Shown: in pieces, positions 11,234 to 61,624 of the stretch
Numbering within the stretch: the stretch's first letter is position 1
Layout: each line of letters starts with the position of its first letter
Source: an uncultured Nitrososphaerota archaeon
GTDB lineage: Archaea; Thermoproteota; Nitrososphaeria; Nitrososphaerales; Gagatemarchaeaceae
DNA: 64,000 bases
Assembly (NCBI GenBank): GCA_963718895.1
Contig: CAVRAG010000008.1
Location: 32,001 to 96,000, forward strand
Reading direction: 5' to 3'
Program-made: the position numbers and the translations under genes
Notes under the pieces: generated by a model
The model's database searches: none
What the model was told of the DNA's origin: nothing
What the model saw: the letters and a program-made list of their open reading frames with translations, nothing else

Positions 11234-11252
11234 ATGACGCGGTATCCTCGAA

Positions 11253-41716: not shown

Positions 41717-42034
41717 CTAGTGGCTTGCCTTTGATACGATTTCGGATGAGATCTCGTCGCGGGTCTTTCCCTCGGTGGAGATACCCAGCCGCTTTGCCGT
41801 GTCTATGAGGGTATCGCCTGTGCCGGGAATTGCGGGAGCAGACGCGACCGCTGGCGCAGGAGCGCCCGCCACGAGGGGGACGTCGCCAGACGCAACCTTG
41901 GATGCGTCGTTGAACTCCTTTCTCGCTAGGCCAATCGACTTTGCCAGTTCTGGAATCTTCTTCGGACCGTACATCAGGAAGACGATTGCCACAACTGCGA
42001 TCACTACCCATTGCAGTGGATCAGTTAGTGCCAT
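41717..42034 (-). CDS. tatA: Twin-arginine translocase TatA/E
   Basis: TM helix plus YGPKKIPELAKSIGLARKEF. Confidence 0.9.
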   Translation of the reverse strand: MALTDPLQWVVIAVVAIVFLMYGPKKIPELAKSIGLARKEFNDASKVASGDVPLVAGAPAPAVASAPAIPGTGDTLIDTAKRLGISTEGKTRDEISSEIVSKASH

Positions 42035-44366: not shown

Positions 44367-44606
44367 GATGCACTCAGTGGTGGCGCGAGCCTTGTTAACC
44401 TATTCGCCCGGCGTGCACGGGCCAGATGGAGTGCGGAGACTGGTACGCGGCGAGCAGCTTTTGACCAGCATCAGATTGCATACAGATTGCGGACCTGAAC
44501 GAGCTTTGGGGCCAATCCGGTCCTTTCGAGAGATATGGAGCCCAAATTCATGTCTCCTAATTTCTGCTTCATATCGCTTAAATTAGAAGCTCGAATCGAA
44601 TACCCG

Positions 44607-45458
44607 ATGAAGAAAACTCTATCGACAGTACTACTCGGCTTCCTCCTCGTCACAACCTCGTTCATCATCTTCGCCCCCGCGGTTCGTGCCAACGTGGCGT
44701 ACACGGTCCAAGTCGGCTATGCCGACGACCTCAGAGCCGCGCCCAACTTCCCCAGTCCATGGTGCGGCTCACCCAACGTTGCGCTCTTCGCCAGTGTTGG
44801 CGATAGTGTCTGCGCAGGTAGCGGGCCGACCTGGGACGACGGTGCCATCCTCATCACCAACACAGGATCGAGTTCGTTCACCATCAACAGCCTAACGGTT
44901 CTTGAACCAAACGACTGGTGCGGCTCCGGTGGTTGTACCATCTGGGGCGGCTACCTCCCGTTCATTCTAGCACCGGGCAAGCAGGCAATATTCGCCCAAA
45001 CGAGCGGACAGAACTTCGACACCAGCGACTTCGGACTTCCTGGGATCGGACCTTCACTGACTGACAACTGCAATGCAGGCGCAGAGCAGGGCTCAGCAAC
45101 TTGTGTCAACAACATTCCCACCGTCGAATTCACGGTAAACGGCGTCCAGTCCAACTTCAAGGACGTCGGATTCACTCTGGACACCGGCGGATTCGACGCG
45201 GTCAACTCCAACCCATGTCCTGACAACGGCAACCCCAACAGCAGCAACGACCAACCAGGCGCATGCAACGAATCTCTCCAGTGGAGAGATATCTCCTCAA
45301 CCTGCGGTATCACATGCCCCGGCGGAAACCCAACACCCACAGTGCCTGAATTCGGATTCCCAATCGTCCTCGTCGCGGCCTTAGGCCTCCTAGCCCTGGT
45401 CCTCGTCAGGAAAGCCGTACTGCCACGCAGAATCGTTCCAGCAAGAACGTTAACGTAA
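44607..45458 (+). CDS. Secreted Cys-rich protein with PEFG-CTERM anchor
   Basis: Signal peptide; VQVGYADDLR; tail VPEFG-TM-RK. Confidence 0.8.
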   Translation: MKKTLSTVLLGFLLVTTSFIIFAPAVRANVAYTVQVGYADDLRAAPNFPSPWCGSPNVALFASVGDSVCAGSGPTWDDGAILITNTGSSSFTINSLTVLEPNDWCGSGGCTIWGGYLPFILAPGKQAIFAQTSGQNFDTSDFGLPGIGPSLTDNCNAGAEQGSATCVNNIPTVEFTVNGVQSNFKDVGFTLDTGGFDAVNSNPCPDNGNPNSSNDQPGACNESLQWRDISSTCGITCPGGNPTPTVPEFGFPIVLVAALGLLALVLVRKAVLPRRIVPARTLT

Positions 45459-46170: not shown

Positions 46171-46290
46171 GCCTCCGGTCTCGGCCTCCCTTATCCGGGG
46201 AGGCCTCACCCTACCACCGAAACTGGACTTTCCGACTAGGCAAGACTATGCAGAAGCTTTATCATGCGGCACTCTGGCGCGAATTCTGTT

Positions 46291-47166
46291 ATGACGCTCT
46301 CAGCTAGCATAGGGAACTACTGGGAGCTGATCAAGCCCAAGATCGTGCTTCTCCTGGTCTTCACCGGGGTCGCCGGGATGCTCGTCGCCTACAAGGAGGC
46401 GGGAGTCCCCATCTCGGGCGTCCAGCTCATAGTCGGGTTCGCGGCGATATTCCTCGGCTCCGCGGGCGCCGAGGTGCTGACGAACTACCACGACAGGGAC
46501 ATCGACGGCATCATGAAGCGGACGAACCACCGACCGATACCAAGCGGCAGGATCACGGAGAGGAGGGCCCTCATCTTTGGGTTCGCGACATCCATACTCT
46601 CGGTCGTGCTCGCCTACTGGTTCAACGCGCTGGCAGCCGCCTTCATGGTCATCGGCCTCGTCGACAACGTGGTGGTCTACTCGCTCTGGCTGAAGCGCAG
46701 GTCCTGGCTCAACATAATCCTCGGAGGGATCTCGGGCGGTATGCCCGTGCTCGTGGGCTACGCCGCCATCGCAGGAACGGTCTCCGCCCTGGCGATATTC
46801 ATGAGCGCGCTGGTCATAGTATGGATCCCGACCCACATCTGGTCCCTCGCCATAAGGACCAGGCAGGACTACGTCAACGCAAAGATCCCGATGCTCCCGG
46901 TGGTGGTGAGCATGAGGGTCGCGACGGTCTGCATCGCGATCACGAGCAGCCTGCTGGCGGTCTTCTCGCTCTCGATCTTCTTCGTCGCGACGGTCAGCCT
47001 CTTCTACGTCGTCTCGGCCGTCGCATGCGGTGCGGCGATCCTCGGATACAGCGTCAAGCTGGTCATCGACAGGACCGAGAAGACGGCCTGGACGCTCTTC
47101 AAGATCTCGAGCCCCTACCTCGCCATCATCTTCACGGTGCTCGTGATGAACTTCTGGGTATTCTAG
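46291..47166 (+). CDS. cyoE: Protoheme IX farnesyltransferase (heme o synthase)
   Basis: LIKPKI, DRDIDGIMKRTNHRPIPSG, WIPTHIWSLA. Confidence 0.95.
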   Translation: MTLSASIGNYWELIKPKIVLLLVFTGVAGMLVAYKEAGVPISGVQLIVGFAAIFLGSAGAEVLTNYHDRDIDGIMKRTNHRPIPSGRITERRALIFGFATSILSVVLAYWFNALAAAFMVIGLVDNVVVYSLWLKRRSWLNIILGGISGGMPVLVGYAAIAGTVSALAIFMSALVIVWIPTHIWSLAIRTRQDYVNAKIPMLPVVVSMRVATVCIAITSSLLAVFSLSIFFVATVSLFYVVSAVACGAAILGYSVKLVIDRTEKTAWTLFKISSPYLAIIFTVLVMNFWVF

Positions 47167-48774: not shown

Positions 48775-49375
48775 TCAGTGACGGTGCTGAGAGCGAATGA
48801 CGGCGTCGGATATCAGCTCGACGCGGTCAAGCCAGCCGAGGCCCAGGTCCAGTTCGCTCATGAGCCGCAGGGGCACGAGGGGGACCTTTGTGCCGATCGA
48901 CATAGACCTCGTCGGGAGTGAAGTCGAGCGGGTCTCCCCACTCCCACTCGGCGACCTTGATCTGCTCATCGCCGAGGATTTTGACCTTGACGTCGTTCAG
49001 CGTCAGCTCCGCGTAGTTGCTCTTGATGTAAACCGGGAGCATCTTTCCCTCGACGTCCGCCTCCCTCTGGAGCTTCTGCTCGACCACGGCCGGCGAGAGG
49101 GTCTGGTACCCCGCCATGATCGTGCAGATCTCCTTGGTGCCTTCCCTGGTCGTGAGAATCTCGATGAAGTCTGCCTGGACGTTCACCCCGTGCATGATCT
49201 CGCCAGCGTCGCCGCCTATCGCCCACTTGGCGTGGACGTCTTTCAGGCTCTCGCCGATCTTGATGACCGCCTTGAGGACCGGCTGACTGAGCATGACGAT
49301 CTCCTCAGGCTTGGGAACCTTGCTCCCCAGCATCGGGATGTCTGGCAGGGGCCTCCCACCGGGGATGTTGAGCAA
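48775..49375 (-). CDS. Nucleotidyltransferase-fold protein (frameshift near C-terminus)
   Basis: WAIGGDAGEIMHGVNVQADFIEILT resembles the NTase N-terminal motif. Confidence 0.55.
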
Positions 49376-49477: not shown

Positions 49478-49699
49478 ATGATCTGCCCTAGTTGCAAGGA
49501 GTATGTCTTTGTCAATAATCCGCTGGAGTGTCCGAAATGTCACTTTGGAGTTCGCCTGTGTAAGCCCTGTTTCGGCACGGGCGAGGTCGAGTTCTGGGCC
49601 TCAGGGTTAACCTATCACGGGAAACGCGAGATGAGAAAGTGCGATGCCTGTTCAGGTCTGGGCCTGGTAGAAGCAGCCGAAACAAAGAAGCCGGCGTAA
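49478..49699 (+). CDS. Small zinc-finger protein with DnaJ-type CxxCxGxG motifs
   Basis: CPSC, CPKC, CKPCFGTG, CDACSGLG. Confidence 0.7.
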   Translation: MICPSCKEYVFVNNPLECPKCHFGVRLCKPCFGTGEVEFWASGLTYHGKREMRKCDACSGLGLVEAAETKKPA

Positions 49700-49753: not shown

Positions 49754-51557
49754 CTAGATGCCGCCTGTCCCCGCGGACAGAGGCCCTGGGTTCTTCAGGT
49801 ACTGGATGATCCCATCGGCCACGACAAGCGCCGAGGCGCCTGCCGGGTGCGTCCCTCCGGTAGTCGTATTGCTTCCGACGGGAAGGGTCGATCTCGCCCG
49901 CCGCGAAGAGGTTCTGTGCGGTCCAGTGCTGTCCCCATTTGTTGAACACGGAGACTGTGGGGTCGACGCCGATTCTGGCGCCGCCCCGCGTGTGTGCCGA
50001 CCAGTTCGTAATGTGACCGGTCAGAGGGGTGGCCGCCGCACCAATAGTGACGTTTGTTGCACCCATCTTGGTCAAGATGGCCGCATACTGAGGTGCCTGT
50101 GCGTTGGAACAGTTCGTCCCGTTCGCCACTATGTCCATGGTTTGTCTGGCCAATGGATCTCCGTAGGCGTCGTTGTAGTGGGGGTCGAGGTCCACGAAAT
50201 TGTCTGTCGTAGCCGGGAAGGTCCCAGAGCCGGCGAAGCTGAGATTCTGCTTCGTGACAAGGAACTTGTTCGCGAGGCTCGCCTTGTAGTTGCTGCCGAT
50301 GTTGTTAGCGCTCGCGGACCCTGCAATTCCGAGGTTGCCTGGGCCTGAGCCCATGTACGAGCCTACCATGAGCCTGCTGCCGCCTATGAAGTTCATGCCC
50401 GTATGGTCGAAATTGTCGTCAGCAAGGTCCAGTATCTGTGTCCCACCTCCCTGGCCGTTGCCAGCCGAATATGCGTTTCCTCCGATCGCAAGTGTACCTG
50501 TCGCTGACCTCGATGGCCCACCGGCAGGCTGCGCAATTCCCCTGCCCAGTGTCCCGGTTATGGTCGTGGGGTTGTAGTTCGTGCCTATCCCGGACAACAT
50601 CATGAGTCGCACGATGTTGAACCCCCAGAGGCAGTTCGCGAATATCTTCGCGGGCTGGACGTGGATGTTGCCCATGAAATCGTAGTATCGGACGGCCGTA
50701 ATCTGTCCGTTGCTGTTCGAGTCGAGCCTGAAGATGTAGTTGTTTACCCTGAGATCCAGATTGCCGCTCTTCAGCGCGGCAGGGATTGTTCTGTAGGCGG
50801 AGTTCGCCTTGGCTCCTGTCTCGCATACGTAGTTACAGCCCTCGCCACACCAACCGTCGTAGACGCACGCGTTCACCTGCACTCCATATTGGTTCATGTA
50901 CGGTTGAGTTGCAAGCGAGACCGGCACGGGGTGGGGACTGTAGCCCAGGGCTTCGCAGGCGTTCGCATAGGCCGTTCCGGTCGGCGTGGCTGGGCACGGA
51001 GGCATGGGAAAGTTGGAGTTCGGCTGGAACGGCGATTGGTTGGTGCCGCAGACCCCCCAGGCCTGCTCCCAGTCCGCGTAGTAGGGGACGAGGTCGTTAT
51101 ACTCGTACGGATAGTCGAAGACGTCATGGTTGGGGACGGCCGCGTCCAGGTACGCCTTGCCGTATCTGCTGACCGTCGACGAGTACATCGAATATACCCA
51201 GTTGCTGTATCGGCCCATCTGGCCTCCGTAGTGCTGAGTGGCACCACCAACCCCATGACCCGCCGTATGGACCTGGCCCGATGTGTTGCGACGGACGGGA
51301 AGTGCCATCTGGGTGGTGTTGTTCCTCATGGTGAAGGTCGAGAGCGAAAGGGGATGGTCGAACTTCCTGTTCCAGGCAATTCCCCACTCGTCATATTTGA
51401 TTGGCGCGAAGTCGGTCTGGTAGTTCCAGTACGGGCCCTTTTCCAACCCTACCACCTTGTAGCCCGCGAGGGCTAGCTTGACAGTTACGTCTCCTCCCAT
51501 TGCTCCCTGGCCAAGTACGACCGCGTCCACCGGCTGATGCTGAATTACTTGAGACAT
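49754..51557 (-). CDS. GMC oxidoreductase, gluconate 2-dehydrogenase flavoprotein-like (copy A; frameshift near 49885)
   Basis: VVLGQGAMGG, LEKGP, GVGGATQHYGG, DLDPHYNDAYGDPL, HTRGGARIG. Confidence 0.9.
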
Positions 51558-51559
51558 CT

Positions 51560-52786
51560 CTAGTCGCCTCCCGCCCCAGCGGTGTACCCAAACGCCGCTT
51601 GGAACTGTGCGAGGCTCACAGGCTTCAGCTTGGTAGGTGTCGTCGCTACCATGAGCGCCTGCGGCGTTAGCCCCTCGTTGTAGAAGTTGCCTGTGTTGAC
51701 TCCGTTGAATCCCACGTATTCCCAACCTACCATGCCTCTGTTGCCTCCGTGCATGGGGTCCATCAGGAAGCCGCAGTAGGTCATGAAGAAGAGCTCAGAG
51801 AAGAAATCCGCAGGATTGATGTTGTTGAACGACGACGCGCCGGGTTTTCCCCCCGCAAGGTCGGTGAGCACCTGAGCCCTCACGGTTGGACTGAGTGTCT
51901 CGAATGCTCCGCCATAGGCGCTGCTTGAGTAGCTCTCCAGACCAAGCACTCCGAAGCGCCAGAACGCGCGAAAGTTGAAGGAGTACTGGTATCCGTAGCC
52001 CGCCGAGATCGACCCTGCCACCGTGCCTCCTTGGTACGTCACGCCATCGACGGTGATTGGTCCTTTCGTTCCTGGTGGTACGAATGGGCCTTGGGCGTAC
52101 ATGTTGCCAGCTTTGCCGTACTCTCCGGCAAGTTGCCTGTCGATGAAGAAGAGAGCTCCTGCCTCCTTCCCACCAGGGCCGTTGCTGTCTGACGGAATGA
52201 TTGTCTCGATCGCCGCTTCTATTGCCGCGGCCTCCTGGGACCCGAGCGTCTGCAACCCGTCGGCCACACTCATGAGGCTCTGCGTCTCATTCTGAAGTGC
52301 ACTGACCTGTGAGTTCGCGCTCGTCACAGCCGAGTTAAGCGAGGTGACCTGGCCGTTCAGGCTGGTAATCTGTCCGTTGGCGCTCGTGAGCGCCTGTTGG
52401 GTCGCCGTGAGCTGCGAGCTTGCAGTGTTAAGCTGCGCGCTCACCCCGCTCAACTGAGAGTTCGCGCTCGAGAGCTGGGCCTGGGTCGAGGTCAGCTGGT
52501 TGTTCAGCGAGGAGACCTGGCCCTGGGCCGAGCTGAGCTGAGATGCGGTCGAGTTGAGCTGGTTCTGCGTTGAAGAGAGCTGATTTTGGGTAGAGCTGAG
52601 CTCGTTCTGGAGGGAGGCCAATGTGCTGCTCGAGTTGCTATTATTCGTACCTATCAGGCTGTTGTAATATGCGACACTTGCAACGCCTGCCACTGCGGCA
52701 CCTGCAACTACGCCGGCGCCGATCTTTAGAAACGATCTGCGGTCAGCTGGTTTTTGCTGCCCGCTGGACTGGCTGCTATCGGCCAT
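51560..52786 (-). CDS. Gluconate 2-dehydrogenase subunit-3-like protein with Tat signal and coiled-coil insert (copy A)
   Basis: DRRSFLK; heptad repeats; IIPSDSNGPGGKEAG..FFIDRQLAG; GFLMDPMHGGNRGMVGW. Confidence 0.88.
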   Translation of the reverse strand: MADSSQSSGQQKPADRRSFLKIGAGVVAGAAVAGVASVAYYNSLIGTNNSNSSSTLASLQNELSSTQNQLSSTQNQLNSTASQLSSAQGQVSSLNNQLTSTQAQLSSANSQLSGVSAQLNTASSQLTATQQALTSANGQITSLNGQVTSLNSAVTSANSQVSALQNETQSLMSVADGLQTLGSQEAAAIEAAIETIIPSDSNGPGGKEAGALFFIDRQLAGEYGKAGNMYAQGPFVPPGTKGPITVDGVTYQGGTVAGSISAGYGYQYSFNFRAFWRFGVLGLESYSSSAYGGAFETLSPTVRAQVLTDLAGGKPGASSFNNINPADFFSELFFMTYCGFLMDPMHGGNRGMVGWEYVGFNGVNTGNFYNEGLTPQALMVATTPTKLKPVSLAQFQAAFGYTAGAGGD

Positions 52787-52790
52787 CCCT

Positions 52791-52817
52791 AATACGTATG
52801 TTATATTCCTATATAAC
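52791..52817 (-). promoter_or_regulatory. Promoter/operator of GMC operon A
   Basis: GTTATA-TTCCTA-TATAAC inverted repeat overlapping TATA; 26/27 identical to 56194-56220. Confidence 0.7.
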
Positions 52818-53226
52818 GTTACTCTGGTCTACGGTCCTGAGATTTGCATCCTCTGGTCGCGAGGACCTAGGCCGGTCTGCGCTTACGCAAAAGGCCGTCC
52901 CGGCCGAATCACTGACGACAGAAGGTCGGCGAAAATCGGCGCATCGGACCCGGGCGCGTTTCACGCACCAATCTGAGTGACTCTCGTGGGAACCATTGGT
53001 AGGATTCTGGGGGAGTCGGGCCTTGTGCGGGCAACCTATGGCTGACAGCACGTGCGCGCGCCACTACGCTATAAGACGCCGTTAACTAGGTCCCAGAAAG
53101 GTCGCCCCTCTCGGCCCTCATTCTCTTTCCCCACACGAACCCGCCTTGCTGATGACTCGCCTTACCCAAAGAGGGAAAAGATTCCCTGGAGCAACGGGCG
53201 AGGCTCTCCGCACACTACTCACGCGC

Positions 53227-55023
53227 CTACACCAACGGACCTGGGTTCAGAAGGTACTTCTTGATGCCTTCCGCCCCGACGTAGGTGGTCGGGCCGATGG
53301 CGTGGGTTCCGGCGGTCACGCTGCTGCCGTGGGTGTTGGTGATCTCGCCTCCGGCGAAGAGGTTTGGCGTGGTCCATGCCTGCTGGTACTTGTTGAAGAC
53401 CGAGGACGTCGCGCTGCTCCCTATCCTGCAGCCGCCTCTGGTGTGCGCCTGCCAGTTATCCATGTGGGTGGTGCCCGCGGCGGTACCCTTGTTGAGGGTC
53501 ACGTTAGACGCGCCAAGTTTTGTCAGGATCGGCTCCATCAAGGGAGCCAGGTAGGTCGCCCCATTGATGGCGTTGTTAGCCCAGTCCATGGTTATCCTCT
53601 CCAGAGGGTCACCATAGATGTCGTTGTGGTGGGGGTCTAGGTCGAGATGCCATCGGGTGTCTGCGAGCTCCGCGGGAGCCGGTCCCATACCAACCGTCAG
53701 CTTCGTGGGGAGGTAGCGGTTCTTCAGGGAAGCCTTGTAGGCGCTTCCCATGCTGTTGATGGTGGCCGCGCCTGCGATCCCTGAGAAGTTCGCCGGTCCG
53801 CCTCCCTGATATCCCCCGACGCTCACAACTCCGCCTCCAATGAAGTTCAGGCCTGTATGGTCGAAGTTGTCGTCGGCGAAGTCGTAGATGGAGACTCCAC
53901 CGGCGCTCGCGTTCCCTGCGCTGTAGGAGTTGCCTCCTATCGGGAGGGTGCCGCTGGCGCTGGCGCCGCCCACGGTGCCGGTGGCGGTGACCCCTCGCCC
54001 GATTGTCCCGGTGCCGTTCGTCGGGTTGTATGTCTGGCCGATACCCGACAGCTGCATCATCCTCGGGATGTTGAAGCCCCAGAGGCCGTCCCAGAACACA
54101 GTGCCCGGCTGGATGTGGACGTTCCCAGACGCATCATAGTATCTAGCCTGGGTCACCTTCCCCGAAGAGTCCGTATCGAGCCTGAACGCGTAGCTGTTCG
54201 TCTTCATGGTGAAGTTCCCGGTCTTGAGCGCCGCAGGGATGACCCTGAATGCCGAGTTCGCCTTCGCCCCCACCTCGCAGACGTAGTTGCAGGCTGCCCC
54301 GCACCACCCGTCGTAGACGCAACCGTTGACCGGGACTCCGTACTGGTTCATGTAGGCCTGCGACGCCAGCGAGGTCGGGGTCGGGTAGGGCGTGTACCCC
54401 AGAGTCTCGGCGGTGTTCATCCATTCCGTCCCCTGCTGGGTCTGAGGGTGAGGGGGCATCGGGAAGTTCTTGCTCATCGGGACCAGCGAACCCATGTTGG
54501 TGCCCGCGAGACCCCAAGCCTGTTCCCACTGGACGTAGAAGGGCTCGTATTCCTCGTACGTCATCGGCCAGTCCTGGACGTCGTTGGTGGGGTCGATGGT
54601 GCTAAGGAAGTTCGGGCCATACCTGCTAGCCGTCATCGATGCCATCTGGTAGTTCCAGGGACCGTACCTGCCCATTGCTCCGGCGTAGTGTTGCGCCATG
54701 CCTCCGACACCGTGTCCCTGCACGATGATCTGGAGAGACGTGTTCCTCCGCGCCGGAAGCGCATACTGGCTGTCGTTGTTCCTTATGGTGTAGGTGGACA
54801 TGGGCAGAGGGTGGTCGAACTTTCTGTGGAACCCGATCCCCCACTCATCGTACTTCACCGGGGCGAAGTCGGAGTTGAAGTCCCAGTACGGGCCCTTCTC
54901 GATTCCTACGACCTTGTATCCGGCCTGCGCCAGCTCGGTCGCGACGATCCCGCCCGTCACGCCGAGGCCAAGAACCACTACGTCGGCCGCGGGGTCCTGG
55001 ATCACATTGGTTGACGAAGACAT
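53227..55023 (-). CDS. GMC oxidoreductase, gluconate 2-dehydrogenase flavoprotein-like (copy B)
   Basis: VVLGLGVTGG, IEKGP, GGMAQHYAG, HTRGGCRIG. Confidence 0.9.
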   Translation of the reverse strand: MSSSTNVIQDPAADVVVLGLGVTGGIVATELAQAGYKVVGIEKGPYWDFNSDFAPVKYDEWGIGFHRKFDHPLPMSTYTIRNNDSQYALPARRNTSLQIIVQGHGVGGMAQHYAGAMGRYGPWNYQMASMTASRYGPNFLSTIDPTNDVQDWPMTYEEYEPFYVQWEQAWGLAGTNMGSLVPMSKNFPMPPHPQTQQGTEWMNTAETLGYTPYPTPTSLASQAYMNQYGVPVNGCVYDGWCGAACNYVCEVGAKANSAFRVIPAALKTGNFTMKTNSYAFRLDTDSSGKVTQARYYDASGNVHIQPGTVFWDGLWGFNIPRMMQLSGIGQTYNPTNGTGTIGRGVTATGTVGGASASGTLPIGGNSYSAGNASAGGVSIYDFADDNFDHTGLNFIGGGVVSVGGYQGGGPANFSGIAGAATINSMGSAYKASLKNRYLPTKLTVGMGPAPAELADTRWHLDLDPHHNDIYGDPLERITMDWANNAINGATYLAPLMEPILTKLGASNVTLNKGTAAGTTHMDNWQAHTRGGCRIGSSATSSVFNKYQQAWTTPNLFAGGEITNTHGSSVTAGTHAIGPTTYVGAEGIKKYLLNPGPLV

Positions 55024-55025
55024 CT

Positions 55026-56189
55026 CTAGGCGCTCCCCTTCTGGAACTGGGCGAGGCTCGCCGGTTTCAGCGGTACCGGGGTCGTCGAGACCATCAGCTG
55101 CTTGGGAGTGTAGCCTTCACCGTAGAAGTTCCCCGTGTTCACGCCGTTGAACCCCACATACTCCCAGCCGACCATGTTCCGGTTGCCGCCGTAGATGGGG
55201 TCCATGAGGAACCCGCACCAAACCAGCATCGTCAGCTCGTAGGCAAAATCGACGGGGTTTATGCTGGCGAAGGAGGTCGGCTTGCCGTTCCAAAGGTCCT
55301 GCAGTGCAGCAAGTTGGTTCGCCGCCGAGAGAGTCTCGAAGTTCCCACCGTAGGCGCTGTTCGCGTACGCCTCGAACGCGGCTAGGCCATATCTGAAGAA
55401 CTCCCGCATGTTCATCTGGTACTGGTATCTCGTACCCGCCGTGACTCGTTGGACCGGGGTGCCGCTCGAGTAGGTCACGCCCTGCACCGTGACGGGGCCC
55501 TTCAGTCCGGACATGATGAACGGCCCCTGCATGTAGACGTTCCCGTTCTTTCCGTAGTCACCGGCCAGGACGCGGTCCATGAAGTATATCGCCCCGGCCT
55601 CCTTTGCGCCAGGACCGTTGCTGTCAGAGGGGATTATCGTTTCCGCTATCGCCGCGAGGACGGATTGCTCGCTGTTCGACAAAGTGAGGAACCCCATCGT
55701 CGTGTCTATCTGGACTTGGAGGGCTGCAGCGCTGGCGTTCGCGCCCGACACGGCTGAGTTGAGCGAGGTCACCTGGCCGTTCAGGCTTGTGATCTGCCCG
55801 TTCGCGCTCGTCAGAGCCTGCTGGGTCGCCGTGAGCTGACTGTTCACGCCGCTCAGCTGAGAGTTCGCGCTGCTGAGCTGGGCCTGGGTCGAGGTAAGCT
55901 GGTTGTTCAGCGAGGAGACCTGCCCCTGCGCCGAGGAGAGCTGGGACGCCGTCGAGTTGAGCTGGTTCTGCGTGGAACTGAGCTGCTCCTGGGTAGAGGA
56001 GAGCTGGTTCTGAAGCGCGGCCACCGAGCTGCTCGAGCTGTTGTTGTTTCCGCCTACGACGCTGTTGTAGTATGGTACTTCTACAACGGTAGCTATTGCG
56101 GCGCCCGCGACCACGCCAGCGCCGATCTTTAGGAACGTCCTGCGGTCAGCAGGTTTTGGCTGCCCGCCAGACTGGCTGCTGTCTGCCAT
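55026..56189 (-). CDS. Gluconate 2-dehydrogenase subunit-3-like protein with Tat signal and coiled-coil insert (copy B)
   Basis: DRRTFLK; heptads; GPGAKEAG; DPIYGGNRNMVGW. Confidence 0.88.
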   Translation of the reverse strand: MADSSQSGGQPKPADRRTFLKIGAGVVAGAAIATVVEVPYYNSVVGGNNNSSSSSVAALQNQLSSTQEQLSSTQNQLNSTASQLSSAQGQVSSLNNQLTSTQAQLSSANSQLSGVNSQLTATQQALTSANGQITSLNGQVTSLNSAVSGANASAAALQVQIDTTMGFLTLSNSEQSVLAAIAETIIPSDSNGPGAKEAGAIYFMDRVLAGDYGKNGNVYMQGPFIMSGLKGPVTVQGVTYSSGTPVQRVTAGTRYQYQMNMREFFRYGLAAFEAYANSAYGGNFETLSAANQLAALQDLWNGKPTSFASINPVDFAYELTMLVWCGFLMDPIYGGNRNMVGWEYVGFNGVNTGNFYGEGYTPKQLMVSTTPVPLKPASLAQFQKGSA

Positions 56190-56193
56190 TCGC

Positions 56194-56220
56194 AATACAT
56201 ATGTTATATTCCTATATAAC
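56194..56220 (-). promoter_or_regulatory. Promoter/operator of GMC operon B
   Basis: Same inverted repeat as 52791-52817. Confidence 0.7.
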
Positions 56221-56401
56221 TTATGTGTTGCATCTTCAGCGGACACGTTACAAATTCCCCCGAAGAGCTGTTCTATTTCTGCGAAATCTTCACGATTCCC
56301 AGGGAAAAAGCCAGAACTGCCCCTGATAATTCCTCTAGACTCATTGTTCGAAACTCTTAAAAGAACTATGACGGGCCCCTCGTTTTGGAGAACCTGAAGG
56401 A

Positions 56402-57032
56402 ATGCAAATAGAGCAAAAGAGAAACGGTATCGGTACTGGAGCTGTTGTAGCAGCGGTGGTTGTCGTCGTATTGATAGCCGCGGCGGGCTACTTCATCTTC
56501 TTCCCGGGCTCCTCCTCCACTACTACTAGGCAACACTATGACGACCACAACGACCACAACGACAACTCCAACGACCTCCACCACGACCACGTCCACAACT
56601 AGCCCGACGACGACTTCCACGACCAGCACCACCACGACATCGACGACTAGCACCACTACGACCACTAGCACGACGAGCACTACGAGTACTACGTCAACTC
56701 AGACCACGTCGACAACCTCAACGACCTCGCAGGCCGCCCCGGTAAAGATCAGCATGCCGAGCGGCGTTGGTGGCAACCAGCAACTGAACTTCGCGCCTCC
56801 AAGCGTGACGGTATCAGCCGGGACGACGATAATCTTCACCAACAACGACACGGTTACGCATAACGTCGACTGGCAGTCCGTCCCAAGCGGGTCGACCATA
56901 ACCGCAGGCACGACCTCGCCGAACATGAAAGGGGGCCAGACCTACACAGTAACCCTCACGGTTCCTGGTACCTACAACTACGTCTGCGACTTCCACTCCT
57001 GGATGAAGGGCACCATCACCGTGACGCCGTAG
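56402..57032 (+). CDS. Membrane-tethered plastocyanin-like cupredoxin with Thr/Ser linker (frameshift near 56530)
   Basis: N-terminal hydrophobic anchor; type-1 copper ligands THNV and YVCDFHSWM. Confidence 0.9.
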
Positions 57033-57108: not shown

Positions 57109-57130
57109 CTTTTTTTCCTCTCCTTTTTCC
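57109..57130 (+). terminator. Pyrimidine/T-rich terminator-like tract
   Basis: T7 run followed by CT-rich tract between convergent genes. Confidence 0.5.
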
Positions 57131-59094
57131 TAGATCAACCGCACCGATTCGAAGGATTCCGAGATAACCTCACCCATCTCCCTCCCGGCCAGGTTGCAAT
57201 CACCAACCGTCACCACCGAGCCCACCCTTCCGATGAAGAACGAATACGGCCCATTGTTGGGGAGCCGGCCGGTGTTGAGGACGACCGTCACCCGCCCTCT
57301 TCTCGTCGTCTTGACACCTGTGTAGACGTTGAAGAGTTCGACGGAATCTTCTCTCACCTCGCTGATGAAGGCGTTGGGAGTGAAGACGACGCCGGCCCTG
57401 AGGGCCCTCTCGTAAAGATAGGGCAGCTGGAGCGACCACTGCGTCTCGAGGCCCGGTGCAGGGTCGCGGGTGACCAGCTCCACTTGCGAACCCCCTTTCG
57501 AGAGCATCTCCGAGAGCGCGAGCCCCACTACGAACCCGGGCTCGTCGAGTATCATGACCTCGCTCCCGACCTCGGCCCCGGAGAGAACCTGGTCGACGGT
57601 CAGCGCGAGCTCGTTACCCTTGATCGTGCAGTAGTCATATTGCTGCAGGCCGTCCCTTATCGGTCTCGATCCGGTGGCTATTACGACCGCGTCGGGCCGC
57701 TCTTCTGCGACGACGTAGCCGGCCACCTCGGGCGACCCTATCTCCTTCCGCAGCTCTATTCTGACCCCGAGAAGGCGGAGCTGGCCCTCGTACCACTTGA
57801 GCACCGTGCCGAAGTCGTCCCTTCCGGGGAGCCTCTTCGCTAGGTTGACCTGTCCCCCAATCGTCGAGCTCCCCTCATAGATGACTACTTCGTGGCCCGC
57901 CGCGGCTGCGGTGCGCGCCGCCTCGAGTCCGGCCACTCCCGCGCCCACAACCAGCACCTTCTTCCTCACGGAGGCGATGGGCAGATTCTCGAGCCCATCC
58001 TCCGACTCGCGGCCGACGAGAGGGTTGACGGTGCACCTCATGGGCACGTTACGCAGCATGTTGCCAATGCACTTCTGATTGTCTCCCAGGCAGAAACGAA
58101 TCTGGTCGAGGCGCCCCTCCCTGGTCTTGTTCGGCAGGTCCGGATCGGCGATGAGCGCCCGCGTCATCCCGACGAGGTCGGCTGTCCCGTCCTCGAGTAT
58201 CGATTCGGCGAGCACGGGGTCGACGATCCTGCCGGCGGCCCCGACGACCGTCTCGGGCAACGCACGCTTGAACGCGCCCACCGACTCGAGCAGGTAGCCG
58301 GGAGCCTCGTACATCGGCGCAATGGCGACGTGCATCCGCTGGTGCTCGAACCCCGCGTCGACGTTGAGGAAGTCGAGCTCGGCCCGGAGAGAGACCGCGA
58401 CGGCGACTTCGTCGGAGAGCGAGTTCCCCGACGGGAACCCGTCACCCGCGTCGACCCGCATCCCGACAGCCAGCCGCCCACGGGTCTCGGCGCGTATGCC
58501 CGTGATGATCTCCGACAGGAGCCTCGTGCGGTTGGCGAGCGAACCGCCGTATTGGTCTTCCCTGCGATTGGTCGCGCTGGAGTAGAACTCCTCGAGGAGC
58601 ATCCCGTGGGTGGCGTGCAGGTCTACGCCGTCGAAACCCCCTCTCGCGATGTATCCCGCGGCTTTCACGTGGTCCTCCACCAGAGTCCTGATCCCCCGGG
58701 CGTCGTAGGCCTGGGGAGTCACTCGCTTGATCCCGCCTGGGACGCTCGAGGCGCTCCTGGTCGCGCTCCGGTTTCCTCCCGCCGCCGAGAGCTCCATGAA
58801 CGCCTTGGCGCCGTGCCTGTGAATTGCTTCGCAAAGGCCCGAATAGTGCGGGATCACTCGTTCGTCGAACCCCTTGTACGGCCAGGCGTCGACGGGCCCC
58901 TCCGGGAACTCTCCGAGGTCCCTGATCGCGGTCGCCATAGAGACCTCGACGAGCCCGACGCCGCCCTTGGCGCGCCGCTCGAGATAGCTCGTCAGGGTCT
59001 TCATGTCGTAGAGGGTGTTGTGTGGGAGGAGCTGGAGCCTGTTCTTGAGCTGGATCGGTCCGACCCGCAGGGGTTCGAAGAGCTTCTCGAACAT
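57130..59094 (-). CDS. NADH:flavin oxidoreductase (OYE/FadH-TMADH family)
   Basis: LFEPLRVGPIQLKNR, DGVDLHATHG, NRREDQYGGS, VVGAGVAGLEAA. Confidence 0.92.
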   Translation of the reverse strand: MFEKLFEPLRVGPIQLKNRLQLLPHNTLYDMKTLTSYLERRAKGGVGLVEVSMATAIRDLGEFPEGPVDAWPYKGFDERVIPHYSGLCEAIHRHGAKAFMELSAAGGNRSATRSASSVPGGIKRVTPQAYDARGIRTLVEDHVKAAGYIARGGFDGVDLHATHGMLLEEFYSSATNRREDQYGGSLANRTRLLSEIITGIRAETRGRLAVGMRVDAGDGFPSGNSLSDEVAVAVSLRAELDFLNVDAGFEHQRMHVAIAPMYEAPGYLLESVGAFKRALPETVVGAAGRIVDPVLAESILEDGTADLVGMTRALIADPDLPNKTREGRLDQIRFCLGDNQKCIGNMLRNVPMRCTVNPLVGRESEDGLENLPIASVRKKVLVVGAGVAGLEAARTAAAAGHEVVIYEGSSTIGGQVNLAKRLPGRDDFGTVLKWYEGQLRLLGVRIELRKEIGSPEVAGYVVAEERPDAVVIATGSRPIRDGLQQYDYCTIKGNELALTVDQVLSGAEVGSEVMILDEPGFVVGLALSEMLSKGGSQVELVTRDPAPGLETQWSLQLPYLYERALRAGVVFTPNAFISEVREDSVELFNVYTGVKTTRRGRVTVVLNTGRLPNNGPYSFFIGRVGSVVTVGDCNLAGREMGEVISESFESVRLI

Positions 59095-60357: not shown

Positions 60358-60523
60358 CTGCTATGTCAGGGGAGGAACCAGGAAGCCGCGCGACGTGCTC
60401 CCGAGGCTCCTAGAGCATCGCGGCGCTGCGACATGTTAGGAGACCCTGAGCCGCTAGCCAAACTACAGCAACACACGCCGATAACTTATGTTATTCCTAT
60501 GTGACTTAAATAGCCGATTCGGA

Positions 60524-61624
60524 ATGCGCCGCCCTATGCGAACTAGGGGAGGCCTCGCGACCCGAGCTTTGGCTATAATCGTCATCGTCATTGTGGCAGT
60601 GGTTGGTGTCGCCGGATACATGGCCATGGCAACGCCGGGTTCCAGTTCTCCCAGCTCTTCCAGTTCTTCGAGCTTTTCGAGCCTGCCGACGACCACGACT
60701 ACGTCCTCTTCCTTCTCGAGCCTGGTGACGACCACATCCTCGCCTACGACGTCTAGTACCTCGACCCCCACGACTAGCTCTACACTGTCCACAACCTCGA
60801 CGCAGACGACCATCAGCAGCCTGCCACCTACGACTTCGAGCACGACCACGACCAGTTCGACACCAACGACTACCAGTTCGACGAAGACCACAACCAGCAG
60901 CACGACCACCACAACAAGCACGACCGCCACAACGACCTCGTCACTTTCCAGCACCTCTTCAGCCACGGCGACGACGTCTTGCTTGCCGTCTATCAGCTTC
61001 ACAAGTCAGCCTGCGAGCGTCTTTGTGCCGATGTTCAATGCCTACTCAGCCATGAGTGGGACTTTCTCGGTCACAATGAACCAACAGACTTTCAGCTACA
61101 CCGCTGGTTACACAGTGGTGTACGCAAGCGCGACGACCTACAAAGTCAGCGTCGACTCATCGGCATACGCGAGTTCCACGACGATGTGGCTTCTCAAGAA
61201 CGGGACCATCGCGGGAATAGACTACGCCACCATGAACTACACGGGCGCGGCAGCGCAGTCGTACTACCAGAGTTCTCGACTCTTCACCGCCTGGAGCACA
61301 GAGACAGCCTTCGGGCAGCAGCTAGCAACCGTGTACCCATTGGCGACGGCATACTTCCACTCCACGGGGACCTCGACAGTGACGGTTGGATCCACCACGG
61401 TCGCCGAAACGAACTACGCTGCAAACTCGCTTCCGGAAGTCGCTCCGACCTGTGATGGCGGAAGCGTTACCCTGACAACCGCCGGCATGTCCTTGGGGAT
61501 ACCAAGCGGGGCGAGCTACTTGTTCCCGATCGGAGTAAGTGTCGCGGGCAGCGCTATAACGCCTGGGAACGTTGCAGTCAGCTTCAGCATCTCATCCCAG
61601 ATAACCTCGATCAAGGTAGCCTGA
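60524..61624 (+). CDS. Membrane-anchored Thr/Ser-rich surface protein
   Basis: Basic N-terminus, hydrophobic helix, long T/S linker, globular domain with WLLKNGT. Confidence 0.8.
   Translation: MRRPMRTRGGLATRALAIIVIVIVAVVGVAGYMAMATPGSSSPSSSSSSSFSSLPTTTTTSSSFSSLVTTTSSPTTSSTSTPTTSSTLSTTSTQTTISSLPPTTSSTTTTSSTPTTTSSTKTTTSSTTTTTSTTATTTSSLSSTSSATATTSCLPSISFTSQPASVFVPMFNAYSAMSGTFSVTMNQQTFSYTAGYTVVYASATTYKVSVDSSAYASSTTMWLLKNGTIAGIDYATMNYTGAAAQSYYQSSRLFTAWSTETAFGQQLATVYPLATAYFHSTGTSTVTVGSTTVAETNYAANSLPEVAPTCDGGSVTLTTAGMSLGIPSGASYLFPIGVSVAGSAITPGNVAVSFSISSQITSIKVA

What the first reader, a model, noticed from the sequence alone, without database searches (positions are those of the whole stretch)
49754..57032. 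Duplicated Tat-exported GMC dehydrogenase on a coiled-coil stalk, beside a tethered cupredoxin instead of cytochrome c
Seen: two tandem operons, each a subunit-3-like gene plus a flavoprotein gene. Between the twin-arginine/hydrophobic segment and the subunit-3 domain lie about 15-17 uninterrupted, almost uncharged S/T/N/Q heptads (LSSTQNQ LNSTASQ LSSAQGQ...). The flavoproteins show no signal peptide and carry a C-x5-C-x3-C-x3-C motif. No CxxCH cytochrome subunit is adjacent, but a divergently transcribed type-1 copper protein on a long Thr/Ser tether is. Known: proteobacterial gluconate 2-dehydrogenase is a flavoprotein, a Tat small subunit and a cytochrome c, with no such stalk. Inference: a rod of roughly 16-18 nm (0.15 nm per residue) holds the enzyme out toward the S-layer, and the flexibly tethered cupredoxin carries electrons back to the membrane. 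tatA and cyoE lie within about 8 kb.
Basis: partly seen in the sequence, partly recalled or inferred. Interest (0 to 1): 0.75.

Follow-up and report, generated by a model that had tools for sequence, protein, structure and literature searches.

The report
Stalked, cytochrome-free archaeal sugar dehydrogenase operons
A soil archaeon carries six copies of an exported flavin/iron-sulfur dehydrogenase whose small helper subunit has grown a long, uncharged coiled-coil rod, and which seems to pass electrons to membrane-tethered copper proteins instead of the cytochrome c used by bacteria.

Summary
Window 49754-57032 carries two tandem gamma-alpha operons of the bacterial "direct-electron-transfer" FAD dehydrogenase type (BcGDH, fructose DH, gluconate 2-DH). 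Beside them is a divergent type-1 copper protein with a membrane anchor and a Thr/Ser tether.

- **Stalk:** the gamma (PF13618, twin-arginine) subunits hold 14-19 unbroken heptads that are almost uncharged. AlphaFold2 gives one helix, residues 53-165.
- **Family:** the genome has six such operons. Homologues sit in one genus of non-ammonia-oxidising Thaumarchaeota and in related MAGs. Their linkers are coiled coils in 92 of 99 and Thr-rich in 4 of 99.
- **Cytochrome c:** none was found in the genome.
- **Cupredoxin link:** a cupredoxin lies directly upstream of only 5 of 37 operons. All five fall in one clade with the cupredoxin domain fused to terminal-oxidase subunit II.
a conserved cytoplasmic nucleotidyltransferase-fold gene ("X") accompanies the operons, and four genes here carry frame breaks, probably assembly errors.
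- **Not shown:** membrane anchoring (a conserved A-x-A site allows signal cleavage), any S-layer relation, and cupredoxin docking.

Verdict: a new variant of a known enzyme system. The electron route and the rod's role are plausible inferences only.

The parts
48775..49375 (-). Gene X: a conserved cytoplasmic protein of about 200 aa with a nucleotidyltransferase fold (TM1012-like). It is split over two frames in this assembly.
   Evidence: All 4 X genes of the genome lie beside ss-fp operons, and the C-terminal piece sits in a second ORF. The C-terminus diverges from 17 homologues. Foldseek best match is 2ewr, E 2.1e-13, TMt 0.85. No Pfam or NCBIfam hit.
49754..51557 (-). fp1: flavoprotein (alpha) of operon 1, with no signal peptide. 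It has a frame break near 49889-49891.
   Evidence: A contig from run X2 lacks one base at 49889, which restores the frame.
50823..50867 (-). fp1 Cys motif CVYDGWCGEGCNYVC (Fe-S cluster loop).
   Evidence: The equivalent fp2 loop aligns to the BcGDH Cys212-Cys222 loop.
51560..52786 (-). ss1: gamma / subunit-3 protein (408 aa) with a twin-arginine N-terminus, a stalk and a PF13618 domain.
   Evidence: PF13618 E 4.2e-23, residues 184-362.
52286..52621 (-). ss1 stalk: 16 uninterrupted heptads (residues 56-167).
52661..52744 (-). ss1 twin-arginine motif plus Gly/Ala-rich hydrophobic segment (residues 15-42). This is either a signal peptide or a signal anchor.
53227..55023 (-). fp2: flavoprotein (alpha) of operon 2, 598 aa, intact.
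   Evidence: 6a2u_B E 2.3e-15; invariant H112, C235, C241, C249.
54277..54321 (-). fp2 Cys motif CVYDGWCGAACNYVC (Fe-S cluster loop).
55026..56189 (-). ss2: gamma / subunit-3 protein (387 aa from the ATG at 56189).
   Evidence: PF13618 E 3.3e-26. (68% identical to ss1)..
55695..56033 (-). ss2 stalk: continuous predicted helix, residues 53-165.
   Evidence: 14 strict heptads.
56402..57032 (+). Type-1 copper protein: N-terminal membrane anchor, a Thr/Ser tether of about 75 aa, and a cupredoxin domain. There is a frame break at about 56520-56540.
   Evidence: An intact orthologue lies in L010.
41717..42034 (-). tatA (context).
   Evidence: PF02416 E 2.6e-10. TatC lies elsewhere in the genome.
46264..47166 (+). 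UbiA-family prenyltransferase, cyoE/ctaB-like (context).
   Evidence: PF01040 E 1.9e-54. The heme O synthase assignment rests on the family only.

Best explanation
The region encodes two of six paralogous gamma-alpha modules of a cytochrome-free archaeal version of the bacterial FAD-dependent dehydrogenase complexes (BcGDH, fructose DH, gluconate 2-DH type).

**Shown**
- Alpha is an FAD flavoprotein with the family's Cys-rich Fe-S loop and no signal peptide.
- Gamma is the PF13618 twin-arginine subunit that carries alpha across the membrane by Tat hitchhiking in the bacterial enzymes.
- Gamma bears a 14-19-heptad, almost uncharged coiled coil whose sequence and register are under purifying selection.
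- A cytoplasmic nucleotidyltransferase-fold protein X travels with the operons.
- No c-type cytochrome is detectable in the genome.

**Inferred**
- The coil forms a parallel, probably trimeric rod of about 15-20 nm. Having no salt bridges, it would stay stable in an acidic medium. It bundles the gamma-alpha units and spaces them from whatever holds its N-terminal end, most simply the uncleaved twin-arginine segment in the membrane.
- Substrate electrons (sugars or polyols; specificity unknown) go from FAD to the Fe-S cluster, then to a membrane-tethered type-1 copper protein, then to the cupredoxin-fused subunit II of the heme-copper oxidase, then to O2.
- X acts in the cytoplasm on maturation or export.
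For: **Family**
- PF13618 hits: E 4e-23 and 3e-26.
- fp2 matches only GDH and FDH large subunits in the PDB (7 of 7).
- The fp2 loop aligns to the BcGDH loop whose Cys212, Cys218 and Cys222 ligate the 3Fe-4S cluster (PMC6719666 passages).
- H112, C235, C241 and C249 are invariant in 41 of 41 archaeal and bacterial alphas.
- The bacterial relatives fetched have the order ss, fp, then an ORF with two or more CxxCH in 50 of 67 loci.

**Stalk**
- 14-19 heptads in five paralogues, about 5 in the sixth.
- All paralogue indels are exactly 7 residues.
- Aligned stalk positions are 83-95% identical between paralogues, against 52-71% in the globular domain. Different heptads within one stalk are only 41% alike.
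- Codons for identical residues still differ in 25-38% of cases, so this is selection and not recent gene conversion.
- AlphaFold2 gives one helix, residues 53-165.
- The best PDB sequence matches to the stalk are the P22 gp26 tail needle (E 2.5e-4) and SlaB chain 8qox_B (E 5e-4; 25% identity over 120 aligned residues). SlaB is described as a trimeric membrane-bound coiled coil (PMC10903991 passages).
- Of 99 full-length homologues, 92 have a coiled-coil linker, 4 a Thr-rich linker and 3 neither. Linker lengths are bimodal, 20-60 or 100-160 aa.
- The 67 bacterial homologue genes are mostly about 240-260 aa, too short to hold a stalk.

**No cytochrome c**
- No PF13442 or PF00034 hit in the genome, which is 80.5% complete.
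- No ORF in the genome with two or more CxxCH.
- None in the 33 archaeal loci.

**Cupredoxin**
- One lies 63-212 bp upstream of the ss gene in 2 of 6 operons of this genome and in 3 of 31 elsewhere. The genome has 15 cupredoxin genes in 3.1 Mb.
- The five adjacent cupredoxins form one clade (support 94/97) with the domain fused to COX2 and with a cox-operon cupredoxin.

**X**
- 4 of 4 X genes in this genome lie beside these operons. X lies within 1.5 kb of 14 of 24 fully visible operons elsewhere. None is present in the 67 bacterial loci.

**Tat machinery**
- TatA and TatC are present.
Against: **Anchoring is unproven**
- A31-x-A33 is conserved (57 and 64 of 78 sequences) at a typical signal-peptidase distance from RR.
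- AlphaFold2 gives residues 1-52 pLDDT below 50 and no helix.
- The hydrophobic segment is Gly/Ala-rich, like the cleaved bacterial signals.

**The cupredoxin link is limited**
- 32 of 37 operons have no adjacent cupredoxin.
- The five linked cases probably come from only two ancestral arrangements. Related genomes are not independent.
- 8 of the 58 bacterial loci with visible downstream sequence also lack a cytochrome gene. Loss of beta therefore does not by itself imply a copper acceptor.

**Other gaps**
- Oligomer number, substrate, expression and any S-layer relation were not tested.
- The genome is incomplete (80.5%) and its assembly carries indels.
Confidence: 0.55

Rival explanations
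1. The twin-arginine signal is cleaved. The coiled coil is then only an oligomerisation module, giving a dimer or trimer of gamma-alpha units. The complex is free in the space outside the membrane or held by another partner, and the rod is not a membrane-anchored spacer.
For: - A-x-A is conserved 16 residues after RR.
- The N-terminal 52 residues have low confidence and no helix.
- Bacterial gamma signals of similar length end in A-x-A or a lipobox-like Cys.
Against: - Neither ss nor fp has any other anchor (sequence).
- An archaeon has no outer membrane to retain a free enzyme (established knowledge).
- The hydrophobic segment and the following E-[IV]-P-Y-Y are unusually conserved: G29 in 74 of 78, P39 in 59 of 78.
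- Four to five heptads would be enough for oligomerisation, yet one length class keeps 13-18.
- Four homologues replace the coil with a Thr-rich spacer, which cannot oligomerise.
- Four homologues have 57-98 residues before RR, which looks like a cytoplasmic domain.
Confidence: 0.3
2. Electrons do not pass through cupredoxins. The Fe-S cluster reduces membrane quinones, or another unidentified membrane protein, and the neighbouring cupredoxin gene is coincidental or serves another pathway.
For: - 32 of 37 operons lack an adjacent cupredoxin.
- Cytochrome-free operons also occur in Alphaproteobacteria (L023, L029, L035, L037-L039, L062).
- For thaumarchaeal PQQ dehydrogenases the literature leaves both quinone and blue copper proteins open (PMC7300363 passage).
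Against: - By my estimate from 15 cupredoxin genes in 3.1 Mb, chance would put about 0.3 cupredoxins within 1 kb upstream of 37 operons. Five were seen.
- The arrangement is kept across species in two operon types.
- The adjacent cupredoxins share a clade with the oxidase-fused domain.
- If the rod is anchored, the Fe-S cluster would sit about 15-20 nm from the quinone pool.
Confidence: 0.25
3. The S/T/N/Q region is a disordered, glycosylated low-complexity linker and not a coiled coil.
For: - The composition is 62% S/T/N/Q.
- Four homologues do carry Thr-rich linkers in its place.
- One to three N-x-S/T sequons occur per stalk.
Against: - L/I/V sits at every seventh position for 14-19 repeats.
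- Indels come only in sevens.
- Position-specific conservation is 89% on average between paralogues.
- A confident continuous helix is predicted.
- DNA-level repeats are weak, 63-79% matches over at most 3.5 copies.
Confidence: 0.04
4. The operons in the window are decaying pseudogenes, with frame breaks in fp1, the cupredoxin and X.
For: Frame breaks are seen in these three genes and in a nearby aldehyde dehydrogenase.
Against: - An independent contig (run X2, 49850-50121) lacks one base at 49889, exactly where the fp1 frame breaks.
- fp6 on another contig is also split, which points to a general indel problem in the assembly.
- The reading frames are otherwise open and conserved.
Confidence: 0.05

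Closest known systems
Burkholderia cepacia FAD glucose dehydrogenase, gamma-alpha-beta (PDB 6A2U and 8HDD), and Gluconobacter fructose dehydrogenase (7W2J)
   Same: The alpha subunit is homologous (E about 2e-15). It has an FAD-binding N-terminus, a His aligned to the FAD-linked His105, and a Cys-rich loop aligned to the 3Fe-4S site. The small gamma subunit carries a twin-arginine signal while alpha has none.
   Different: - There is no multihaem beta subunit.
- Gamma carries a coiled coil of 100-130 aa.
- The Cys spacing is C-x5-C-x3-C-x3-C, against CC-x4-C-x3-C.
- The gamma Cys that forms the inter-subunit disulfide is not conserved among the six paralogues.
- An extra cytoplasmic gene X is present.
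- The host is an archaeon.
Proteobacterial gluconate 2-dehydrogenase-type operons (for example the Pantoea, Pseudomonas and Achromobacter loci L026, L054, L059, L069)
   Same: The gene order is small subunit (PF13618) then flavoprotein. The four-Cys loop is conserved.
   Different: The bacterial gamma genes are mostly about 240-260 aa with no stalk. A three-CxxCH cytochrome gene follows in 50 of 67 loci. No X is present.
SlaB, the S-layer stalk protein of Sulfolobus acidocaldarius (PDB 8QOX chain B)
   Same: It has a long S/T/N/Q/L-rich, nearly uncharged heptad helix. The match is 25% identity over 120 aligned residues, E 5e-4 by sequence. SlaB is described as a trimeric coiled coil standing on the membrane of an acidophile.
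   Different: The SlaB coil is C-terminal, followed by a transmembrane segment, and carries Ig-like domains that hold the S-layer. Here the coil is N-terminal and carries an enzyme. No common descent is shown; VIA-align scores of this size are usual for any long helix.
Thaumarchaeal blue-copper electron carriers, and PQQ dehydrogenases proposed to feed them
   Same: A published hypothesis holds that Thaumarchaeota lack cytochrome c and use plastocyanin-like proteins, and that external dehydrogenases may reduce them (PMC7300363 passages).
   Different: That proposal concerns PQQ enzymes. An FAD/Fe-S gamma-alpha enzyme, its gene linkage to a cupredoxin and a cupredoxin-COX2 fusion are not mentioned in the passages I read.
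caa3-type oxidases (cytochrome c domain fused to subunit II). This comparison is recalled, not tested.
   Same: An electron-carrier domain is fused to the C-terminus of COX2.
   Different: The fused carrier here is a type-1 copper domain, not a haem c domain.
TM1012-like putative nucleotidyltransferases (PDB 2EWR), the ANT(2'')/LnuA fold
   Same: The gene X model matches at E 2.1e-13, TMt 0.85, 24% identity. ESM Atlas neighbours carry PF10706 in 12-73% of members.
   Different: X is about 40 aa longer. The canonical D-x-D/E motif is reduced to one invariant Glu. X is linked to dehydrogenase operons. The function of TM1012 itself is not known.

Membership tests
FAD-dependent dehydrogenase complex of the BcGDH/FDH type (gamma-alpha-beta) | Catalytic flavoprotein homologous to the BcGDH/FDH large subunit | tested here: met
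   fp2 against the PDB: 7 of 7 hits are GDH or FDH large subunits, best E 2.3e-15. The Pfam GMC_oxred_N and GMC_oxred_C hits are only sub-threshold.
FAD-dependent dehydrogenase complex of the BcGDH/FDH type (gamma-alpha-beta) | Cys-rich loop that binds the 3Fe-4S cluster | tested here: met
   The loop aligns to BcGDH residues 212-222. C235, C241 and C249 are invariant in 41 of 41. Cluster type and occupancy cannot be tested from sequence.
FAD-dependent dehydrogenase complex of the BcGDH/FDH type (gamma-alpha-beta) | Small PF13618 subunit with a twin-arginine signal, encoded just upstream of a signal-less alpha (hitchhiker export) | tested here: met
   PF13618 is above cut-off. RR-x-F is invariant and Lys at +4 is present in 75 of 78. 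A two-base gap separates it from the alpha ATG. Export itself was not tested.
FAD-dependent dehydrogenase complex of the BcGDH/FDH type (gamma-alpha-beta) | Multihaem cytochrome c (beta) subunit | tested here: not met
   None was found in the operons. No PF13442 or PF00034 hit and no ORF with two or more CxxCH in the 80.5%-complete genome.
Parallel coiled coil | Unbroken heptad register with hydrophobic a/d positions, kept by evolution | tested here: met
   14-19 heptads with a = L/V/I and d = L/T/A. Indels are all 7 residues. A helix is predicted for residues 53-165. The number of strands was not tested.
Type-1 (blue) copper protein | Cupredoxin domain with His, Cys, His and Met ligands | tested here: met
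   PF00127 E 1.1e-15. H108, C150, H153 and M156 are invariant in 25 of 25.
Uncleaved Tat signal anchor (Rieske-like) | The twin-arginine segment is retained as a transmembrane helix in the mature protein | tested here: inconclusive
   The hydrophobic segment is conserved, but there is a conserved A-x-A and the N-terminus has low confidence and no helix. No signal-peptide predictor was available.
Polymerase-beta-like nucleotidyltransferase fold (gene X) | The fold, and the catalytic hG[GS] ... D-x-D/E motif | tested here: inconclusive
   The fold is met: 2ewr E 2.1e-13, TMt 0.85. A GG motif is present, but only one acidic residue (E78) is invariant where D-x-D/E is expected (the motif is recalled).

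The most novel reading that the evidence does not exclude
The near-identical rods of the five long-stalk paralogues co-assemble. Different sugar or polyol dehydrogenases would then be displayed together on shared, acid-proof coiled-coil masts of about 17-20 nm. These would be wired by long-tethered cupredoxins to a cupredoxin-fused terminal oxidase. The result would be a haem-c-free, copper-only extracellular respiratory relay in acid-soil Thaumarchaeota, with X as its dedicated cytoplasmic maturation factor.
Probability: 0.12. Interest if true: 0.8.

Novelty: new variant of a known kind. Interest (0 to 1): 0.55.

Why it matters
These enzymes are studied for direct-electron-transfer biosensors, and only bacterial three-subunit forms are characterised. 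An archaeal form would show how monoderm, cytochrome-c-free cells wire external oxidation of sugars or alcohols into respiration. Its distinguishing parts are the lack of a cytochrome, a rigid uncharged rod on the export subunit, a linked blue-copper carrier and a new accessory protein.

It also points to a possible energy source for the abundant but uncultured group I.1c Thaumarchaeota of acid soils and peat. The main text of the family's genome paper does not mention it (term search only; supplements closed).

The strict conservation of an apparently low-complexity rod is a testable structural puzzle.

Tried and rejected
**Calls that gave no support**
- Complex prediction of fp2, the ss2 domain and the cupredoxin domain, with the cupredoxin as partner: score 0.04 against a mark of 0.32, so no support and no verdict.
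- Foldseek of the ss2 model against the PDB found nothing at E <= 0.001.
- VIA-align wide returned only long coiled coils, because the helix dominates. The fold of the gamma domain was therefore not compared with solved gamma subunits.
- A profile of alignment A4 against PDB sequences gave 0 hits at E <= 0.1.

**Hypotheses rejected**
- Recent gene conversion as the cause of stalk identity. Synonymous differences are 25-38% in the stalk against 40-54% in the domain.
- The stalk as a general surface-display module. phmmer of the stalk against all ORFs of the genome found only the five ss paralogues, plus two weak unrelated coiled coils at E 0.002-0.005.
- X in bacterial operons. None was found in 67 loci.

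**Sequencing runs**
- No RNA holder was listed, so nothing can be said about expression.
- The contigs laid did not cover 56358-56611, so the cupredoxin frame break could not be checked.
- A one-base omission at 50026 in one X1 contig (depth 2.4) is not shared by the X2 contig and was not interpreted.

**Tools and literature**
- A literature search for 'gluconate 2-dehydrogenase' plus 'Thaumarchaeota' found 2 papers. Judged from title and abstract only, both are soil community surveys.
- In the main text of PMC10640624 the terms gluconate, cupredoxin, plastocyanin, blue copper and S-layer occur 0 times. Supplements could not be read and may list these genes.

Full report
**What is there**

On the minus strand of the window lie two back-to-back two-gene operons. 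The first is ss1 (51560-52786, 408 aa) with fp1 (49754-51557). The second is ss2 (55026-56189, 387 aa) with fp2 (53227-55023, 598 aa). In both, two bases separate the small-subunit stop from the flavoprotein ATG.

- ss1 and ss2 hit Pfam PF13618 (gluconate 2-dehydrogenase subunit 3) at E 4.2e-23 and 3.3e-26. Their TAT_signal hits are sub-threshold.
- fp2 finds only seven distinct PDB sequences. All are large subunits of FAD glucose dehydrogenase (6a2u_B, 8hdd_A) or fructose dehydrogenase (7w2j_A and mutants), at E about 2-6e-15.
- The flavoproteins start directly with the dinucleotide-binding GxGxxG motif and have no signal peptide.
- The motif C-x5-C-x3-C-x3-C sits at fp1 residues 231-245 and fp2 residues 235-249.
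- In the HMMER alignment this loop lies on the BcGDH loop. According to the passages I read in PMC6719666, that loop holds Cys212, Cys218 and Cys222 as ligands of a 3Fe-4S cluster, and Cys213 in a disulfide to the gamma subunit.
- In an alignment of 41 archaeal and bacterial alphas, C235, C241, C249 and H112 are invariant. H112 aligns to the FAD-linked His105.

The Cys motif is therefore the family's known Fe-S site, not a new feature.

**The stalk**

Between the twin-arginine/hydrophobic segment and the PF13618 domain, ss1 has 16 and ss2 has 14 uninterrupted heptads.

- Position a is L/V/I, position d is L/T/A, position c is mostly S, position g is mostly Q.
- Only 2 of 112 and 1 of 98 residues are charged.
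- AlphaFold2, run on a 78-row alignment, gives a single helix for residues 53-165 with block pLDDT 88-95 over residues 61-140. That is about 17 nm at 0.15 nm per residue.

The genome (3.13 Mb, 11 contigs, 80.5% complete) holds six ss-fp operons. Five have long stalks of 14-19 heptads. The sixth, on contig C3, has about five heptads and about 75 residues ahead of its RR motif.

- Among the five long forms, every stalk indel is exactly seven residues.
- Aligned stalk positions are 83-95% identical, against 52-71% in the globular domain.
- Different heptads of one stalk are only 41% alike, so the identity is position-specific and not a matter of composition.
- Codons for identical residues still differ in 25-38% of cases in the stalk, against 40-54% in the domain. 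DNA-level tandem repeats are weak. This is purifying selection, not recent gene conversion or repeat expansion.
- A phmmer search with the stalk against all ORFs of the genome finds only these five proteins at convincing E-values. The rod belongs to this enzyme and is not a general display module.
- The best PDB sequence matches of ss2 are the P22 gp26 tail needle (4lin_A, E 2.5e-4) and chain 8qox_B (E 5.1e-4). The latter is SlaB. The passages of PMC10903991 that I read describe it as a trimer whose 132-residue C-terminal helices form a membrane-inserted coiled coil.
- VIA-align gives SlaB Z 7.2 with 25% identity over 120 residues, the highest identity in a list made up otherwise of generic coiled coils.

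I infer a parallel, probably trimeric coil. The trimeric nature of gp26 is recalled. The strand number here was not tested.

The lack of charge means the coil does not depend on salt bridges. That fits an acidic medium. Relatives come from peat and bog MAGs (record titles). Near-identical contigs occur in soil metagenome runs. The abstract of PMC10640624 calls the group abundant in acidic soils. This is an inference.

**Distribution**

A word-index search with the ss1 domain gave 320 proteins at E <= 1e-3 among 2178 candidates. The named ones among the best 120 are from Thaumarchaeota, Nitrososphaerales and Bathyarchaeia MAGs.

- Of the 99 of those 120 that are full-length, 92 have a coiled-coil linker (three or more heptads), 4 a Thr-rich linker and 3 neither.
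- Linker lengths fall into two classes, 20-60 aa and 100-160 aa.
- In the GTDB family of the window's genome, the ss1 domain was found in 13 of 97 genomes, counting G000. These are 12 of 22 other genomes of the same genus and 0 of 74 in nine other genera, often with 5-8 matches per genome.
- PF13618 was found in 5 of 301 sampled genomes of the class.
- In the species-representative genome collection the best 80 loci comprised 13 archaeal and 67 bacterial loci.
- The bacterial ss genes are mostly about 240-260 aa and have no stalk. In 50 of 67 loci the flavoprotein gene is followed by an ORF with two or three CxxCH (48 loci with three, 2 with two). Of the other 17, nine end at a contig edge and eight (L023, L028, L029, L035, L037-L039, L062) truly lack it.

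**No cytochrome c**

- None of the archaeal loci has an ORF with two or more CxxCH.
- The genome has no PF13442 or PF00034 match and no non-overlapped ORF with two or more CxxCH. The 21 single motifs are mostly in proteins whose sequence context looks like zinc ribbons or alcohol-dehydrogenase-type metal sites.
- One PF01578 (CcsA/CcmF-like) gene exists at C7:555244-557247 with no cytochrome nearby.
- Absence is limited by the 80.5% completeness.

**The cupredoxin**

The Thr-rich ORF 56538-57032 carries a PF00127 domain (E 1.1e-15). Its ligands H108, C150, H153 and M156 are invariant in 25 of 25 aligned sequences.

The membrane anchor MQIEQKRNGIGTGAVVAAVVVVVLIAAAGYFIFFPGSSSTTT starts at 56402, in another frame. 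The orthologue in L010 has anchor, tether and domain in one frame. The window gene therefore carries a frame break at about 56520-56540. The ATG lies 212 bp from the ss2 ATG, divergently oriented.

- In this genome a second operon (op6 on C3) also has a divergent, anchored, long-tethered cupredoxin 172 bp upstream.
- In other genomes, 3 of 31 distinct ss genes with at least 1 kb of upstream sequence visible have a cupredoxin 63-190 bp upstream (L010, L017, L098). Two more have cupredoxins of a different clade 2.3 and 6.3 kb away.
- With 15 cupredoxin genes in 3.1 Mb, chance would give roughly 0.3 such neighbours among 37 operons. This is my estimate. The five cases probably reduce to two conserved arrangements, and related genomes are not independent.
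- Three of the five linked operons are short-stalk forms, so the cupredoxin link does not depend on the long rod.
- In a tree of 20 cupredoxin domains, the five adjacent ones fall in one clade (UFBoot 94, SH-aLRT 97). The clade also holds a free cupredoxin of the oxidase operon and the C-terminal domain of a COX2-cupredoxin fusion. The window protein is 70% identical to that fused domain.
- Pfam confirms COX2 plus Copper-bind in one protein, next to a COX1-COX3 fusion.

This makes the route Fe-S cluster, tethered cupredoxin, oxidase, O2 plausible. It parallels the published idea that Thaumarchaeota use blue copper proteins in place of cytochrome c and that external PQQ dehydrogenases may feed them (PMC7300363 passages). 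A docking prediction gave no support and is not evidence either way.

Downstream of fp1 lies gene X (48775-49375, minus strand). It is about 200 aa, has no signal or transmembrane segment, and has no Pfam or NCBIfam hit.

- The genome has four X genes, and all four sit beside ss-fp operons.
- Elsewhere X lies within 1.5 kb of 14 of 24 fully visible operons, in several orientations. It is absent from the 67 bacterial loci.
- An AlphaFold2 model (pLDDT 85) matches the Thermotoga TM1012 "putative nucleotidyltransferase" (2ewr, E 2.1e-13, TMt 0.85, 24% identity). It matches LnuA, ANT(2'')-Ia and MenT more weakly.
- ESM Atlas neighbours are archaeal hypothetical proteins that partly carry PF10706.
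- The family is small: 32 representatives at E <= 1e-30 and 134 at E <= 1e-10 among 1.84 billion.
- Only one acidic residue (E78) is invariant where the fold's D-x-D/E motif is expected (the motif is recalled).

I infer a cytoplasmic maturation or export factor. Its activity is unknown.

**Frame breaks**

Five genes are each split between two frames:
- fp1, near 49889-49891
- the cupredoxin
- X
- the aldehyde dehydrogenase at 42830-44366
- fp6 on C3

A contig of an independent soil-metagenome run (X2, 49850-50121, depth 3.5) lacks one base at 49889, exactly where the fp1 frame breaks. Assembly indels are the likeliest cause. The other sites were not covered.

**Is the rod anchored?**

This is the weakest link.

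For an anchor:
- Neither ss nor fp has any other hydrophobic segment.
- The segment RRxFLKIGAGVVAGAAVA[ST]VVE[IV]PYY is strikingly conserved: G29 in 74 of 78, A33 in 64 of 78, P39 in 59 of 78.
- A rod or a Thr-rich spacer only makes sense if one end is fixed.
- Four homologues have 57-98 residues ahead of RR.

Against an anchor:
- A31-x-A33 is a conserved, well-placed signal-peptidase motif.
- The segment is Gly/Ala-rich, like the cleaved bacterial signals.
- AlphaFold2 gives it low confidence and no helix.

No signal-peptide predictor was available. I put anchoring by the uncleaved signal at about one half.

**Comparison and verdict**

The system works like, and is homologous to, the gamma-alpha core of the bacterial FAD dehydrogenase complexes. 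It fails the membership test for the three-subunit complex because beta is missing. It adds three things:
- a conserved polar coiled-coil rod on the hitchhiker subunit
- a recurrent gene link to a specific cupredoxin clade
- an accessory nucleotidyltransferase-fold protein

My searches found no description of these. The evidence is a term search of the main text of the Gagatemarchaeaceae genome paper, a search for 'gluconate 2-dehydrogenase' with 'Thaumarchaeota', and listings. Supplements were closed.

It is a new variant of a known kind. The S-layer part is untested.

Noticed in passing
window 42830-44366 (-); window 48775-49375 (-); G000 C3:17212-18997: Further genes are split between two frames: an aldehyde dehydrogenase (PF00171 positions 176-461 in one ORF, the N-terminal part in another), gene X, and the sixth flavoprotein. 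This suggests a general indel problem in the assembly and may lower its completeness estimate.
   Followed up: partly
L107 (G000 C7:260000-275000), ORFs 8211-9191, 5829-8204, 5066-5557, 4415-4900, all on the minus strand: This is the terminal oxidase operon. It holds a COX2 fused to a C-terminal type-1 copper domain, a COX1-COX3 fusion, and two further anchored cupredoxins. The second of these has lost the Cys and His ligands.
   Followed up: partly
G000 C7:555244-557247 (-): A 667-aa CcsA/CcmF-like protein (PF01578, E 1.6e-18) sits in a genome where no c-type cytochrome was found.
   Followed up: no
window 44535-45458 (+): A secreted Cys-rich protein of 307 aa with no Pfam hit. Its C-terminus reads ...PTVPEFGFPIVLVAALGLLALVLVRK, which looks like a PEF-CTERM-type archaeosortase sorting signal (recalled, not tested).
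   Followed up: no
window 60488-61624 (+): Another protein with an N-terminal anchor, a Ser/Thr tether of about 100 aa and a C-terminal domain with no Pfam hit. Tethered surface proteins seem common in this organism.
   Followed up: no
window 57130-59094 (-): An Old-Yellow-Enzyme / pyridine-nucleotide-disulfide-oxidoreductase fusion (654 aa, 2,4-dienoyl-CoA-reductase-like architecture) lies convergent with the cupredoxin gene.
   Followed up: no
G000 C3:16064-17209; homologues P0039, P0109, P0116; loci L017, L098: The short-stalk gamma subunits carry a helical-looking extension of 57-98 residues ahead of the twin-arginine motif. These are the forms most often next to a cupredoxin (3 of the 5 linked cases).
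   Followed up: partly
L028 (Chloroflexota MAG), ORFs 2573-3163, 3988-4893, 4906-6663: A bacterial homologue with a Gln/Ala/Pro-rich linker in the small subunit. It has no cytochrome gene and has a cupredoxin-like ORF about 800 bp upstream. This may be a parallel solution in another lineage.
   Followed up: no
L035, L037, L038, L039 (Xanthobacteraceae and other Alphaproteobacteria MAGs): Tandemly duplicated ss-fp operons with no cytochrome c gene occur in bacteria too.
   Followed up: no
window 49478-49699 (+): A small ORF with two CxxCxGxG motifs gives a sub-threshold DnaJ zinc-finger hit. It lies convergent with fp1, between fp1 and X. A different small Cys-rich ORF lies between operons 3 and 4.
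   Followed up: no
window 8001-14000: G+C falls to 0.48-0.51, against about 0.60 elsewhere in the window.
   Followed up: no
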